In this document: positions 55,701-61,700 of the stretch, piece after piece
Numbering within the stretch: position 1 is the stretch's first letter
How the letters are laid out: every line of letters starts with the position of its first letter
Assembly: GCF_055900595.2 (NCBI RefSeq)
Contig: NZ_CM148325.1
DNA length: 64,000 bases
Reading direction: 5' to 3' (one strand)
Position numbers: made by a program

Positions 55701-58700
55701 GATGCAGATGTTTCACTTTTTATTTCTCTTTCAGGTGAATAGATCGTTTTTACTATTTTACCCCGCACAAATCTTCGTTAAAATCAGATTATAGTGTAGG
55801 AATAATTCGTTTTTTACGATCCATTGAAGGATTTGCGTCATCAGTGATGAGATGAGTTTTTGACGGCTGTAAGCGCTCACGAGTGACCCTAAGCCCTGAT
55901 AATCATAGCTTAAGGTGAGGATTTCTGAGGGATTAATTAGGAAAAGTAATAATAAAATCGCACTGTGCTATAGCTGTTTATTCCAGAGATGCTTGAAAAT
56001 ATCTAATGTGGAGACAACATTGGCAGGCGACATTCGGTTTAATGAGGATAGAAAGGGATGAGACTCCAGGAAGTTGATAAAACGAGTCGCGCTTGCTAAC
56101 GTCGAATACCGCATTTCATTTGCTTTCTTGTTTCCTGTAAGGTTACAAACAGCCATTGAATAATCACGGGCGGAAAATGCACGCCAGACATTATTTCTCA
56201 CGCCACCACTCAAAAACAACCGCGGCGGCGTATCATAATGAGTCGTTTTCTCGCCGCGTTCTTTCACAAATGAAATATGGCACCGGCCTTGATGAATATG
56301 CTGTAAATTAGCCATTAGACAACCGCCTAATATAAAGCACTCGTGATCAAGGTAGTGTTGAATATTTATAGAATATGCTTCAGTCAGTACTCTAACCAGT
56401 TCAAAATGGCGATACGCCGGAAGAACAGGTTTCACCAGCATCCCCGGATCGTTTTGATGTAATATCGCCCGACCATAATCAATATCAAATAAAGTATCAC
56501 GTCGCATAGTAAGTAACTCCTTGCGTTGTACGTGATGCGCCAGTGTACCAGAAGTAATAATTTACGGATATCAGCAAGTGAAGCGCCTTGCTCAATCATC
56601 AATGCTAAATGTGTTCTTCGCGGCGTTGTATTTACATGATCCAGAGTGATAAAAGTTCCGGAACAATGATGACAATACATTCTCCTCTGCCCCTGAGCTG
56701 AATAGCCATACTTTTTCAGAGATGTGCTTCCGCAAGCTGGACATTGTGAAACCAACCCTCGCCATGAATGATTAACACGATTACGATAAATATTAAGAGA
56801 TCGTTCAGATATCACAGGAAACAAGTAACCGCATTCTCGACATAAAATATTTTTGCCTTGTGCAATATAATCCTGGCTATTCAACAACCCCAGGTTTTTG
56901 CATCCTGGTGTTTTGCAACAATCAACATTTACGTTGGTAAACATATTCACTCCCTGCGAATACCCGGATATTATCGTCATATGTCAAAGAAAAGAACCTG
57001 ATTCAATGTGTAACATTGAATCAGGCGGGCATAGCCCTAAATGGCATACATTACATTTATTATGATTATCAGGTTAGCCCCAGGTCACTGCTTCTGGTTT
57101 ATCACCTCTGGCTTTCATTAATGAATCATTATCAATATCGGCTTTATACTTTAAGAAATTACCATACATTTGTTTTTCAATGTCTGGATTTTTACCTATC
57201 TGATTAATGGTCTCAAAACGATCGGTTTTGAGGTTGTATAGGTACTTTGGCTTATTGTTACGATCGATGATCATTTTCCAGTCACCATCACGTATCGCCC
57301 ATTCGTCGGTTGGATCATCCTGGAATGGCATGTCAATTCCGAAGATTAATGGCTTTTCACGTTTTAGCGCCTTGTTCTCAAGGACAGGAACCAACGATTC
57401 GCCATCAAAAGTGCGGTCCGTCGGTAATTTGAAGTTCATCATTTTCGCCAGCGTAGGCATCCAGTCCAGACCATAAACGGGAGTATCTGAAACCATTCCC
57501 TTTGGAAGATGCTTTCCGTATTTAATAATCGCCGGAACACGGATGCCGCCTTCCCAAAGATTATCCTTGCGACCACGTAATCCATCCGTTTCCCCTGCCA
57601 AATTCAGCTCATACACTTTGCGCGCTTCACGCGTTACCGGACCGTTATCACTGGTAAAAATAACGATTGTGTTATCTTCTTCACCCATCGCTTTGATTTT
57701 ATCCAGCACTTTTCCAACCTGTGCATCCAGATAGCTGATGTTGGCATAATATTCCCCCACACCACGCCAGGGTTTATCCGCCCAGTCGCCATAAAATAAA
57801 TCAGGATGCTGTTTCTGATAGTCGCTCATATATTGTGAGTACATGTCGAGGTATTTTTTGGGCGAAGCCAGGGGACTGTGCACTTCGGTAAAAGCGACAT
57901 AAAGGAAGAAAGGCTTACTATCCTTTTTGTTATCCAACCAGTTAACGACTTCCGAACTGACATACTCACCACTCATTTTATCGGCACGAGGTGTGGGTTG
58001 CCCGTTACGCAACCAACCCGTCGGATACACCATGCCAAAACGGGGACGCTCCTTCGCATTATCCAGAGTAGCGTCGGTAACAAAACCCGCCGTATTAACC
58101 AGTGAGTAATCAAAGCCCATATCTTGTGCTTGTGGCTGATCGGTGCGATCGCCGCCTGCATTCAGATGCAGCTTACCCATCATTGCCGTGTCGTACCCTT
58201 GCGCTTTGAGTAGATTAGCAATCGTGAGTTCGTTACGCCCTAAGGCAACATCTTTGCCTGAAGGAATCCATGAGCGAATTCCAGTACGAAATGGCATCCG
58301 GCCGGTTAATAGCCCAGCGCGTGAAGGTGAACTTAAAGGGGCGGGGGCATAGTAGTCAGTAAATTTGACCCCTTCCTGGGCAAGCCTGTCGATATTAGGT
58401 GTTTTAACGATCTGATGACCATATGTTGCTAAATCGCCATAACCTAAATCATCCGCCATAATAATGACTAAATTAGGTTGTTTAGCCTCTGCGGCTAAGG
58501 CAGGACTAAAAGCATTCCCTGTGCAAACTGCAAGGCCGATCAAACTGGCCATTAACGTTTTCTGCATAATTATTCCCTGATAAAAAATTAGAAATCATAA
58601 CCAAGCATATAAATCATTTGATCGCCAAAGCCATCGTAGCCCAGCTTATTATCGAAATAACGCCACGTCACACTGGCTTTCCAGCGAGGATAGAACTTCC

Positions 58701-61700
58701 AGACAATAGTTAAACCGCCATTTAATCCGTTCCGGCCAAATTGCTGCTCCGTGTAAGCATCGTTCCTGTCCAGTTCTATTTCATTCCAGTTAGATAAAAC
58801 AAATTTTTCGTCAAATAACATAAATGGCAATACTGCTGTCCAGCCAACAACATAACCATTCCAACCATTCGTTTGACCATATTTAGCTGATACGTAGTCA
58901 CCAGATTGATTATGTAATCCAATATACGGTTTAAAAAAGCCCCACTCGCCGTTCCAGCCGAGATAACCGAATCCATAAAACATGTCCAGATCGTCACCCC
59001 ATGAGTTATCCCATTGGCCATAAATTTTGCCAAAGAATGTCATATCAGAGTCAAAGAGTCTGACATGCGTCATTGCTGAAACCGTATGATTTCTCCCTGC
59101 TACAGCATGATTGAGTACATTACTTTCATAAAATGAGTAAAATTCTGCTTCTTTAAAATTTACCCCAAAATCCGCAGTCACTTTCCATACTTCACCACGG
59201 TGAGTGTTTACAAATCCACTATTCCAGTCTGCATAACCCGCATTTATTGAACCAAAGGTTCCTTTATATTCTAATGAAGAATATGCAGGAAAATGATAGA
59301 TAGCTGTTATCAGGGTACACGCAATAAGAAGTCGTCTTTTGGCAGACATATATTATGTTCTCCATTCATTGTTTTTATGATTCCATAGGAATTAATACAC
59401 CAGATAATTCATTTTGATTAAGAACGACTCAGAAAGTATATTTAAAGGTGAATGGCAAAGCGTGATGGAGATCGCAGATTACTTTTACCCCCGGGTGTGG
59501 AGGTATCGTGTTTCAAAAAGTGTGTCGATTTTAAATATCACTCATTGATTTATAAACATTTTTCCTCACAAAAAGAAAATTCAATTCTGTACAAGAATAT
59601 TTTGTATCTTCTATTACTTTCTCCAGTAATAACTCACCATTCAGGCATAACTTAAACCTCTTGTTCATAATCTCAACTTTTGTAAATGAAAACGCACATA
59701 AGAGTTAAAATAAACAATGTACTAAAGATTAATTACGCAAAAATGCGAGGCGTCTTCAGGATTAGAATCGATAAAACAGAATGGGTTAAAGAGAGCGATA
59801 TAATAGCGGCGGGTGCTTGAGGCTGTCTGTCTCAGGCATTAGCTGAACGGCAGATAGAGAAAAGCCCCGAGTGATATTTTACCATCAACCCGAGGCCCCC
59901 TATATGCAGAACACATGTAGAGTGCCTCTTACTGACCGTAAGGTCAAGGAGAAGAGAGCAATGAAGCAGCATAAGGCGATGATTGTCGCCCTGATCGTCA
60001 TCTGTATCACCGCCGTAGTGGCGGCGCTGGTAACGAGAAAAGACCTCTGTGAGGTTCACATCCGAACTGGCCAGACGGAGGTTGCTGTTTTCACGGCTTA
60101 CGAATCCGAGTAAGAGCAACGGCGGGGAGTGATCCCCGCCACTTTACAGGTGCTCGCATATCTTCAACGCACCCTATTTTTACCCAAGCCTGCCCACAGG
60201 CAGGCTTTTGGGGAGGTTAGCGAGTCAGGTCGTCAAAAAACTTCTTCACACCATCAAAGAAGCTCTTTGAACGCGGGCTGTTGTGCTCACCGGTTGGGCC
60301 ACCGAAGCTTTCCTGCAGCTCTTGCAGCAGCTGTTTCTGCTTCTCGTTCAGACCTACCGGTGTTTCGACGACAACGCGGCACAGCAAGTCACCTTGCGCA
60401 CCGCCGCGAACAGACTTGACGCCTTTACCGCGCATACGGAACAGCTTACCGGTCTGGGTTTCGCCAGGCACTTTCAGTTTGACGCGACCATCAAGGGTCG
60501 GTACTTCGATTTCGCCACCCAGCGCTGCCATAGCGAAGTTGATCGGGACTTCGCAATACAGGTTGTTGCCTTCACGCTCGAAAATCGGGTGCTGTTTAAC
60601 CTGAACCTGAACGTATAGATCGCCTGCCGGTGCGCCATGCTCGCCCGCTTCACCTTCGCCCGCAAGACGGATGCGGTCTCCAGTGTCCACTCCTGCCGGG
60701 ATTTTAACGGACAGCGTTTTGCTGCGCTCAACACGACCATGACCATGACATTTGTTGCACGGATCTTTGATCAGCGTACCGCGGCCCTGACAGTGTGGAC
60801 AGGTCTGCTGTACAGCGAAGAAGCCCTGGCGCATCTGCACCTGACCAGAGCCATGACAGGTCGGACAGGTCTGCGGCTGTGTACCTGGTTTTGCACCGCT
60901 ACCGTGGCAAACGTCACACTCTTCCAGAGTCGGAATGCGGATCTCTTTGGTCACGCCACGTACAGCTTCTTCGAGGGTGAGCTCCATGTTATAGCGTAAA
61001 TCAGCACCGCGCGCCGCACGTTGACGACCACGTCCGCCGCCAAAAATATCGCCGAAAACGTCACCAAAAATATCGCTGAAGTCTGCGCCGCCGCCAAAAC
61101 CGCCGCCGCCCATGCCGCCTTGCTCAAACGCAGCATGACCATACTGATCGTATGCCGCACGTTTTTGCGAGTCGGTCAGAACTTCATAAGCTTCCTTGAT
61201 CTCTTTAAATTTCGCCTCGGCCTCTTTGTCACCCTGGTTACGGTCCGGGTGGTATTTCATGGCCAGGCGTTTGTAGGCCTTTTTGATTTCACGCTCTTCC
61301 GCTGTTTTGGAAACGCCTAAAATCTCGTAATAATCTTGCTTAGCCATCTTTTTTGATTTGCCCCTAGATGAATGCACGGGCGGAGAGGAAATTCCCCTTC
61401 GCCCGTGTCAGTATAATTACCCGTTTATAGGGCGATTATTTTTTGTCTTTGACTTCTTCAAATTCAGCGTCGACAACATCGTCATCTTTCGCGTTGTTTG
61501 CAGAAGCATCAGCACCGGCAGTCTGCTGCTGGGCATGTTGCTGCTGGGCGATTTCCATCAGTTTCTGGGAAACCTGTGCCAGTTCCTGCATTTTCGCTTC
61601 GATAGCGGCTTTGTCTTCACCTTTCAGAGCAGTTTCCAGTGCAGTCAGCGCAGACTCGATAGCAGTTTTGTCGTCAGCCGGCAGTTTGTCGCCTGCTTCT

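What the first reader, a model, noticed from the sequence alone, without database searches (positions are those of the whole stretch)
58588..59349. Small outer-membrane beta-barrel protein upstream of the sulfatase
The 253-aa protein has a signal peptide, aromatic/Gly-rich alternating composition and a terminal Phe, all hallmarks of an outer-membrane beta-barrel of the size class of Tsx or OmpL channels. Its substrate is unknown; the adjacent sulfatase suggests sulfated sugars or nucleosides.
Basis: inference. Interest (0 to 1): 0.4.

Follow-up and report, generated by a model that had tools for sequence, protein, structure and literature searches.

The report
Tsx-family outer-membrane channel tied to sulfatase
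The gene encodes a small 12-stranded outer-membrane channel of the Tsx/OmpK family, from a sub-branch that always sits beside a periplasmic sulfatase rather than nucleoside genes, so it probably admits small sulfate esters instead of nucleosides; it is already annotated in E. coli but has never been studied.

Summary

RefSeq already names it 'outer membrane protein OmpK'. It occurs in 1273 of 5426 complete E. coli genomes, in an accessory island between dnaJ/hokC and nhaA.

The sulfatase link is real. All 26 distinct relatives with at least 52% identity lie next to the same sulfatase, at several chromosomal sites, usually with an anaerobic sulfatase maturase, a Zn-ribbon protein and often an aryl-sulfotransferase. 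None of the 33 relatives at or below 41% identity does; 13 of them sit in nucleoside-catabolism clusters. The sulfatase-linked clade is monophyletic (100/100) and has its own invariant basic residues, three of them predicted to face the lumen.

Best reading: a passive channel that feeds small sulfate esters, probably aryl sulfates, to the co-transcribed periplasmic sulfatase. The substrate is inferred, not shown.

In Escherichia the cassette is reduced (no maturase, catalytic Cys replaced by Ser) but still under purifying selection.

The parts
58588..59349 (-). Gene for the 253-aa Tsx/OmpK-family outer-membrane channel (sulfatase-linked clade). The stop codon is 58588..58590.
59278..59349 (-). 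Signal-peptide codons (residues 1 to about 23/24, MSAKRRLLIACTLITAIYHFPAYS/S).
   Evidence: Read directly from the sequence. The alignment places the conserved mature N-terminus LEYK right after it. AF2 models helix 3-18 outside the barrel.
58568..58587 (-). 20-bp spacer between the channel gene and the sulfatase gene, with a GGGA Shine-Dalgarno-like element. No terminator-like site was found between the genes; they are probably co-transcribed.
   Evidence: A spacer of 19-21 bp is kept in the Citrobacter, Pseudomonas-labelled, Vibrio and Salmonella loci.
57074..58567 (-). Periplasmic S1 sulfatase, 497 aa, with a signal peptide. The formylglycine motif is SSPSR, with Ser at residue 79 (codon 58331..58333).
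   Evidence: Pfam Sulfatase 201 bits. Near-identical to PDB 3ED4 (1120 bits). Ser in Escherichia versus Cys in all other genera.
56996..57026 (-). Terminator-like hairpin (14-bp stem followed by a T-run) after the sulfatase gene. It sits at the position where other genera carry the anaerobic sulfatase maturase gene.
   Evidence: The maturase gene is absent.
55968..56980 (-). Remnant of the cassette's fourth gene, a 414-aa protein with an InsA/IS1-like Zn ribbon. In this window it is broken by a 268-bp internal deletion, leaving ORFs 56432..56980 and 55968..56507.
   Evidence: Alignment to the intact copies in strains 2013C-4282 and CE10. NCBIfam IS1_IS1595_Zn domain.
59350..59810 (-). Upstream non-coding region of the operon (35-39% G+C). 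It contains a stretch conserved across genera, including ...ATCAC (window 59461..59480), which is part of an imperfect palindrome in Citrobacter and Salmonella.
   Evidence: A regulatory role is inference only.

Best explanation
The gene encodes a monomeric 12-stranded outer-membrane beta-barrel of the Tsx/OmpK family (shown by profile match and predicted fold). It is exported by the Sec pathway and inserted by the BAM machinery through its C-terminal Y-x-F signal (inferred from sequence). It belongs to a distinct sub-branch of the family whose members are always encoded beside a periplasmic S1 sulfatase (shown). The most likely job is passive, substrate-selective diffusion of a small sulfate ester across the outer membrane into the periplasm. 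There the sulfatase made from the same transcript removes the sulfate (inferred). The neighbouring periplasmic aryl-sulfotransferase in many genomes, and the flat aromatic-lined pore typical of Tsx, make phenolic (aryl) sulfates the best guess for the substrate; this guess is weak. Basic residues conserved only in this clade and predicted to line the lumen (K56, R97, H146), plus loop residues R51 and H81, would supply the anion selectivity that nucleoside-linked relatives lack (inferred). In Escherichia the four-gene cassette is reduced to channel plus sulfatase: the maturase gene is lost, the catalytic Cys is replaced by Ser, and in this window the fourth gene is also broken. Both remaining genes are nevertheless still under strong purifying selection.

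For: Link to the sulfatase: the order channel - sulfatase - radical-SAM maturase - Zn-ribbon protein is found in Citrobacter, Salmonella, Pseudomonas-labelled contigs and Vibrio. In a scan of one genome per species, every relative with at least 51% identity is adjacent to the sulfatase, and no relative at or below 41% is. The cassette stays together at the dnaJ-nhaA site and at other sites (L005, L008, L027, L029, L030, L034, L038), and in both co-directional and divergent layouts.

Separate clade: identity within the clade is at least 52% and to all others at most 41%; neighbour-joining bootstrap support is 100/100.

Contrast group: 13 of 33 distinct other relatives sit in PfkB-IUNH-NupC or deoCABD nucleoside clusters.

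Clade-specific invariant basic residues R51, K56, H81, R97 and H146, of which K56, R97 and H146 fall on the lumen-facing parity of their strands.

Aryl hint: aryl-sulfotransferase (PF05935) genes lie next to the cassette in at least 10 loci.

Selection: dN/dS is 0.046 for the channel and 0.034 for the sulfatase between two E. coli allele groups.

The maturase identification is secure: TIGR03942 at 521 bits.
Against: No transport or binding data exist, and I found no paper on this protein or cassette. The substrate class is inferred only from neighbours. The sulfatase's solved or characterised relatives (steryl sulfatase, arylsulfatase A, GalNAc-6-sulfatases, carrageenan sulfatases) all score about equally (E 1e-48 to 1e-54), so they do not discriminate. 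The lumen-facing assignment rests on strand parity, not on coordinates. In one subclade the channel is co-oriented with a UshA-like 5'-nucleotidase-family gene, which would fit a nucleotide-like substrate. In Vibrio the cassette abuts nupC-deoCABD. In Escherichia the sulfatase has Ser at the formylglycine position and no cognate maturase, so its activity there is uncertain. Sporadic E. coli strains carry a broken channel gene.
Confidence: 0.7

Rival explanations
1. It is simply another nucleoside channel, a Tsx/YfeN paralogue that takes up nucleosides or deoxynucleosides. On this view its position next to the sulfatase is a frozen accident of one island.
For: It matches the Pfam nucleoside-channel family and has a Tsx-like fold. 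Its closest K-12 relative, YfeN, lies beside xapAB. More distant relatives lie in nucleoside clusters. The Vibrio cassette is next to nupC-deoCABD, and one subclade has a 5'-nucleotidase-family neighbour.
Against: The sulfatase adjacency holds for all 26 distinct clade members, at several chromosomal sites and in two gene layouts, and for none of the 33 outgroup members. The clade is separated with 100/100 support and has its own set of conserved basic residues. No nucleoside transporter or phosphorylase is part of the conserved cassette.
Confidence: 0.12
2. It is a channel for sulfated carbohydrates, such as mucin- or glycosaminoglycan-derived sulfated monosaccharides, which the sulfatase then desulfates.
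For: The sulfatase has an SGSH_C-type C-terminal domain. It is about as similar to GalNAc-6-sulfatases and carrageenan sulfatases as to aryl or steryl sulfatases. The organisms are gut bacteria.
Against: No glycoside hydrolase, sugar transporter or sugar kinase is conserved in the cassette. The recurrent extra gene is an aryl-sulfotransferase, which acts on phenolic sulfates. Tsx-type pores are narrow and lined with aromatic residues; this last point is from established knowledge of the Tsx structure and was not tested here.
Confidence: 0.13
3. In Escherichia the pair is a decaying, functionless remnant. The maturase is gone, the catalytic Cys is mutated and the fourth gene is deleted in this window, so the channel gene is on its way to becoming a pseudogene and matters mainly as a phage or colicin receptor.
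For: Maturase loss and Cys-to-Ser change in all Escherichia. A 268-bp deletion in the fourth gene here. Independent nonsense, frameshift and IS-insertion alleles of the channel gene in E. coli. The island is absent from about 77% of complete E. coli genomes. Tsx and Vibrio OmpK are known phage receptors (established knowledge).
Against: dN/dS is 0.046 (channel) and 0.034 (sulfatase) across dS of 0.60 and 0.23 between alleles that both already lack the maturase. The gene is intact in the major lineages sampled, ST131, UPEC 536, CE10 and KSC207, and 58 of 60 evenly sampled genomes show no length change. E. coli has other putative maturases (aslB, ydeM), and a Ser-type sulfatase has been produced in active form in E. 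coli (PMC8379841).
Confidence: 0.05

Closest known systems
E. coli Tsx (nucleoside-specific channel; PDB 1TLW/1TLY; Pfam PF03502, Channel_Tsx)
   Different: Only 13-14% structure-based identity. There is no BLASTP similarity, and a family profile does not retrieve Tsx from the PDB. The protein is shorter (229 versus 272 mature residues). It is encoded with a sulfatase, not in a nucleoside regulon. It has clade-specific basic lumen residues.
E. coli K-12 YfeN (putative outer-membrane porin next to xapAB; NCBIfam NF008574)
   Same: The closest K-12 paralogue: 30% identity over the full length (E 5e-30) and the same size, 254 aa.
   Different: It scores 119.8 bits against an equivalog cut-off of 282, so it is not an ortholog. 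YfeN-like relatives sit with nucleoside genes, whereas this clade sits with sulfatases.
Vibrio OmpK (outer-membrane protein, receptor of vibriophage KVP40), the source of the RefSeq product name
   Same: Same family and size class. RefSeq transfers the name to this protein.
   Different: The Vibrio relatives found outside sulfatase cassettes are only 33-38% identical. Phage-receptor function was not tested. The name is a family-level label, not evidence of function.
Substrate-specific channels encoded with the enzymes for their substrate, such as KdgM/NanC (12 strands; oligogalacturonate, sialic acid), ChiP, LamB and CymA
   Different: There is no sequence-family membership (no Pfam KdgM hit). 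To my knowledge none of these is tied to sulfatases.
Klebsiella atsBA (Ser-type arylsulfatase AtsA with its radical-SAM maturase AtsB)
   Same: A periplasmic S1 sulfatase plus an anaerobic sulfatase maturase in one operon. The cassette's maturase hits TIGR03942 at 521 bits.
   Different: As described (recalled, not checked here), atsBA has no dedicated outer-membrane channel or Zn-ribbon gene. Outside Escherichia the sulfatase here is Cys-type.

Membership tests
Tsx/OmpK channel family (Pfam PF03502) | Sequence match to the family profile above the curated threshold | tested here: met
   49.6 bits against a cut-off of 27.2, E 5.8e-13. The match covers only residues 106-253. Relatives in the big database carry PF03502.
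Tsx/OmpK channel family (Pfam PF03502) | Monomeric 12-stranded antiparallel beta-barrel with both termini on the periplasmic side | tested here: met
Tsx/OmpK channel family (Pfam PF03502) | Sec signal peptide and C-terminal aromatic insertion signal ending in Phe | tested here: met
   N-terminal MSAKRR + hydrophobic core + AYS/S, and C-terminal ...LGYDF.
Tsx/OmpK channel family (Pfam PF03502) | Nucleoside-specific binding and transport (Tsx proper) | not testable with these tools
   Identity to Tsx is too low (13-14%) to map the nucleoside-binding residues, and no coordinates or assays were available.
Tsx/OmpK channel family (Pfam PF03502) | Genomic association with nucleoside uptake or catabolism genes | tested here: not met
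   No nucleoside genes are in the conserved cassette, and all 26 distinct clade members flank a sulfatase. The nucleoside association is seen only in relatives at or below 41% identity.
YfeN equivalog (NCBIfam NF008574 / PRK11528) | Score above the equivalog cut-off (282 bits) | tested here: not met
   119.8 bits and 30% identity to K-12 YfeN. It is a paralogue, not an ortholog.
KdgM/NanC/OmpL family of 12-strand channels | Sequence-profile match and best fold match | tested here: not met
Vibrio OmpK (KVP40 phage receptor) | Orthology to the characterised Vibrio protein, or phage-receptor function | not tested
   No named reference sequence was compared. Vibrio relatives outside sulfatase cassettes are 33-38% identical.
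Sulfatase cassette (channel + S1 sulfatase + anaerobic sulfatase maturase + Zn-ribbon protein), as defined here | Presence of all four genes in order | tested here: not met
   The window has the channel and the sulfatase. The maturase is absent, as in all Escherichia, and the Zn-ribbon gene is broken by a 268-bp deletion.
Sulfatase cassette (channel + S1 sulfatase + anaerobic sulfatase maturase + Zn-ribbon protein), as defined here | Channel gene immediately upstream of the sulfatase gene on the same strand with a spacer of about 20 bp | tested here: met
   The spacer is 20 bp in the window and 19-21 bp in the Citrobacter, Pseudomonas-labelled, Vibrio and Salmonella loci.

The most novel reading that the evidence does not exclude
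The sulfatase-linked clade is a neofunctionalised branch of the Tsx family: the first outer-membrane channel dedicated to small organic sulfate esters, such as host- or diet-derived phenolic sulfoconjugates. It would form, with a periplasmic sulfatase, an aryl-sulfotransferase, a maturase and an InsA-like Zn-ribbon regulator, a previously undescribed 'sulfoconjugate-processing' module of enteric bacteria. Escherichia would keep a stripped-down version that depends on orphan host maturases, or on a Ser nucleophile.
Probability: 0.3. Interest if true: 0.6.

Novelty: new member of a known kind. Interest (0 to 1): 0.35.

Why it matters
How small sulfate esters cross the outer membrane to reach periplasmic sulfatases and aryl-sulfotransferases of enteric bacteria has, as far as I could find, not been described. 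A dedicated Tsx-type channel would fill that gap. It would also show that the 'nucleoside channel' family annotation hides a second substrate class. The host excretes many drugs, hormones, catecholamines and dietary phenols as sulfates, so a bacterial uptake-plus-desulfation module in Citrobacter, Salmonella and extra-intestinal E. coli lineages (B2/ST131) could bear on reactivation of sulfoconjugates and on sulfur scavenging in gut and urine. Practically, the current product names ('OmpK', 'nucleoside-specific channel-forming protein Tsx') probably mislead about function. The gene itself is ordinary in kind: a specific porin encoded with its pathway.

Tried and rejected
- A single-sequence search of the PDB with the channel found nothing at E up to 10. 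A 53-sequence profile also failed to retrieve Tsx and gave only a marginal NanC hit. The Tsx relationship therefore rests on the Pfam profile and the predicted fold.
- BLASTP against K-12 Tsx showed no real similarity. hhalign aligned only the N-terminal 75 columns, at 63% probability.
- Eight literature searches found nothing on this channel or on a Tsx-sulfatase cassette. The 'STM003x' hits were KEGG pathway numbers or potato markers.
- I tried to learn the role of the cassette's Zn-ribbon protein by AF2, but the model was poor (pLDDT 58.7), so I ran no fold search on it. Pfam finds only the InsA-type Zn ribbon.
- The generic promoter scan found no more sites than in shuffled sequence (13 versus 12.3 expected), so I name no promoter.
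- I rejected OmpL/KdgM membership and YfeN orthology (see the membership test).
- I rejected the 85-aa ORF 58776..59033 inside the gene as a gene. It is merely the frame that frameshifted E. coli alleles run into.
- A first bootstrap script timed out; I redid it with a faster distance routine.
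Full report
**1. The observation.** Window 58588..59349 (minus strand) is an uninterrupted ATG-to-TAA ORF of 253 codons.
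- The N-terminus (MSAKRR, a hydrophobic core, then AYS/S) is a typical Sec signal. Homologues align so that the conserved mature start LEYK follows it directly, and AlphaFold2 puts residues 3-18 in a helix outside the barrel.
- The mature 229 residues are 21.8% aromatic and 12.7% Gly, contain no Cys, and end in ...LGYDF.
- The sulfatase gene (57074..58567) follows on the same strand after 20 bp, with no terminator-like site between the two genes.

The description is accurate and the ORF is a real gene. It has a Pfam match at E 5.8e-13, the identical protein occurs on 364 public contigs, and dN/dS against a divergent E. coli allele is 0.046.

**2. Where the window comes from.** The flanks are dnaK, dnaJ, the mokC/hokC-sok module, nhaA and nhaR.
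- The 4.6-kb stretch matches E. coli chromosomes. Flanking sequence is in 5425 of 5426 complete genomes, but the island itself is in only 1271-1273 of them, about 23%.
- Carriers include ST131, UPEC 536, NRG 857C and CE10.
- The island has 35-46% G+C, against 50-57% for its neighbours.
- RefSeq already annotates the gene as 'outer membrane protein OmpK'; other sources call it 'nucleoside-specific channel-forming protein Tsx'.
- A 2014 paper on the nhaAR region draws this module as a 'putative cerebroside sulfatase' region and does not mention the outer-membrane gene (PMC4182557).

**3. Family and fold.**
- Pfam Channel_Tsx (PF03502) scores 49.6 bits against a cut-off of 27.2, over residues 106-253.
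- NCBIfam's YfeN-type equivalog scores 119.8 bits, below its 282-bit cut-off. Identity to K-12 YfeN is 30% (E 5e-30).
- There is no BLASTP similarity to K-12 Tsx. Neither the sequence nor a 53-member profile retrieves Tsx from the PDB by sequence.
- AlphaFold2 with that alignment gives a confident model (pLDDT 95.1, pTM 0.84) with twelve long strands.

The protein is therefore a divergent member of the Tsx/OmpK/YfeN family. It is not of the OmpL/KdgM class.

**4. The sulfatase link.** Gene neighbourhoods of relatives showed the same order at every locus examined: channel, sulfatase, radical-SAM/SPASM enzyme, then a protein of about 415 aa with an InsA-like Zn ribbon.
- This order is seen in Citrobacter (at the same dnaJ-nhaA site), Salmonella, contigs whose protein UniRef assigns to Pseudomonas, and a Vibrio MAG.
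- The radical-SAM enzyme is an anaerobic sulfatase maturase (TIGR03942, 521 bits).
- A scan of one genome per bacterial species returned 53 loci. I called ORFs in all loci and classified them by BLASTP against reference proteins taken from the annotated loci.
- The result is a clean split. Every relative with at least 51% identity to the query (32 loci, 26 distinct sequences) is adjacent to the sulfatase. These come from Citrobacter, Phytobacter/Kosakonia, Kluyvera, Atlantibacter, Franconibacter, Buttiauxella, Klebsiella spallanzanii, Salmonella and four Escherichia species, plus the Pseudomonas-labelled and Vibrio contigs.
- No relative at or below 41% identity (33 distinct sequences) is adjacent to a sulfatase. 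Thirteen of those lie in PfkB-nucleoside hydrolase-NupC or deoCABD clusters.
- The cassette stays together at the dnaJ-nhaA site and at other sites, and in two layouts: co-directional, and divergent in a subclade with 55% identity to the query.
- The sulfatase-linked sequences form a clade with 100/100 neighbour-joining bootstrap support. Identity is at least 52% within the clade and at most 41% to the rest.
- Aryl-sulfotransferase genes (PF05935) flank the cassette in at least ten loci.

**5. What distinguishes the clade.** Five positions are invariant and basic in the sulfatase-linked clade and different in the nucleoside-linked group: R51, K56, H81, R97 and H146 (R86 and H88 are nearly invariant).
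- Hydrophobicity alternation across the clade alignment puts K56, R97 and H146 on the lumen-facing side of strands 2, 4 and 7.
- R51 and H81 lie in the predicted extracellular loops L1 and L2 (from the strand map).
- Extra positive charge in the pore and at its mouth is what one would expect for a channel that selects an anionic sulfate ester. This is inference from parity, not from coordinates.

**6. Most likely mechanism.** Some steps are shown and others inferred.
- Shown: family, predicted fold, operon-like arrangement, strict conserved synteny, clade separation, and purifying selection.
- Inferred: the protein is a passive, substrate-selective pore that lets a small sulfate ester reach the periplasm. 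There the signal-peptide-bearing sulfatase, and in many genomes the periplasmic aryl-sulfotransferase, act on it.
- Weakly inferred: the substrate is a phenolic or aryl sulfate. The sulfatase's characterised relatives do not discriminate. Human steryl sulfatase, arylsulfatase A, GalNAc-6-sulfatases and carrageenan sulfatases all score E 1e-48 to 1e-54.

A UshA/SoxB-like metallophosphatase gene follows the channel in the 55%-identity subclade, and in Vibrio the cassette abuts nupC-deoCABD. A nucleotide-like sulfated substrate therefore cannot be excluded.

**7. The Escherichia version is reduced.**
- All Escherichia loci (the window, EC42405, 2013C-4282, CE10, E. albertii, E. whittamii and Escherichia sp. 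MOD1) lack the maturase gene. They also have Ser instead of Cys at the formylglycine position (SSPSR versus CSPSR). Every other genus has Cys, including three loci that also lack the maturase.
- A strong terminator-like hairpin sits where the maturase gene would begin.
- The sulfatase is near-identical to PDB 3ED4, an unpublished structural-genomics entry (PMC9063841).
- In this window the Zn-ribbon gene is also destroyed by a 268-bp deletion.
- Even so, the two E. coli allele groups, which both already have Ser and no maturase, differ by dS 0.60 (channel) and 0.23 (sulfatase), with dN/dS of only 0.046 and 0.034. Both genes have therefore been kept functional.
- E. coli has other putative maturases (aslB, ydeM) and an unidentified third system, and a Ser-type sulfatase has been produced in active form in E. 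coli (PMC8379841).
- Broken channel alleles occur sporadically: a nonsense codon 7 in EC42405, a frameshift in MFDS1022581, an IS3 insertion in SX48, and several 190-aa frameshift products in the protein database. However, 58 of 60 evenly sampled genomes show no length change.

**8. Comparison with the known, and novelty.** The protein works like a specific porin encoded with its pathway, as Tsx, KdgM, NanC and ChiP are. It is a member of Pfam's Tsx family by profile and by predicted fold.
- It fails the test for YfeN orthology.
- It does not share the nucleoside gene context.
- I found no publication on the protein or on a Tsx-sulfatase module.

I therefore file it as a new, uncharacterised member of a known kind. 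It is already annotated by homology, and its product name probably misstates the substrate. The more novel reading, a Tsx branch neofunctionalised for sulfate esters, is plausible but unproven.

**9. Verdict.** Interest is moderate to low (0.35). The finding is solid and a testable hypothesis comes out of it, but nothing in it would strongly surprise a specialist.

Noticed in passing
window 58331..58333 (- strand; codon 79 of the sulfatase 57074..58567): The formylglycine-precursor residue is Ser in all Escherichia examined (E. coli, E. albertii, E. whittamii and one unnamed species) but Cys in every other genus. The same Escherichia loci have lost the adjacent anaerobic sulfatase maturase gene. 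The enzyme is still under purifying selection (dN/dS 0.034) and corresponds to PDB 3ED4.
   Followed up: partly
window 55968..56980 (- strand): The cassette's fourth gene (414 aa, two InsA/IS1-like Zn ribbons plus a confident helical segment, remainder of unknown fold) is a pseudogene here because of a 268-bp internal deletion. It is intact in other E. coli and conserved next to the sulfatase in all genera. The AF2 model of the intact form was too poor (pLDDT 58.7) for a fold search. It may be the cassette's regulator.
   Followed up: partly
window 56996..57026 (- strand): A terminator-like hairpin with a 14-bp stem and a T-run lies directly after the sulfatase gene, at the place where other genera carry the maturase gene.
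   Followed up: no
window 59811..59963 (+) and 59871..60113 (+): The sok antisense RNA (Rfam RF01794, 116.9 bits) overlaps the mokC/hokC toxin ORF, between the island and dnaJ.
   Followed up: no
window 61348..61425 (- strand): tpke11 small RNA (Rfam RF02031, 68.8 bits) in the dnaK-dnaJ spacer.
   Followed up: no
L009 8861..10432 (also L010, L031, L032, L033, L036): In the subclade with 55% identity to the query (Salmonella arizonae/Poona, Citrobacter braakii, Klebsiella spallanzanii), the channel gene is followed on the same strand by a metallophosphatase/5'-nucleotidase-family gene. That gene scores similarly to UshA (175 bits) and to the thiosulfohydrolase SoxB (157 bits). The pair lies divergent from the sulfatase operon, with an aryl-sulfotransferase gene on each side in four of these six loci.
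   Followed up: partly
window 59461..59480: The upstream region holds a stretch conserved from Escherichia to the Pseudomonas-labelled contigs, ending in ATCAC. In Citrobacter and Salmonella it reads GTGAGATTTA(C/T)ATCAC, an imperfect palindrome with 8-bp spacing, while in E. coli the left half has diverged (CTGCGATCTCCATCAC). It may be an operator; this was not tested.
   Followed up: no
window 55968..59349 compared with L015 (E. coli CE10): Divergence between the two E. coli allele groups is uneven along the island: dS 0.60 in the channel gene, 0.23 in the sulfatase gene, and near identity in the Zn-ribbon gene. This suggests a recombination mosaic. The eight amino-acid differences in the mature channel are not concentrated in the loops.
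   Followed up: partly
window 58776..59033 (- strand, alternative frame): The 85-aa ORF nested in the channel gene is the frame that several independent frameshifted E. coli alleles (190-aa products) read into. There is no evidence that it is a gene.
   Followed up: yes
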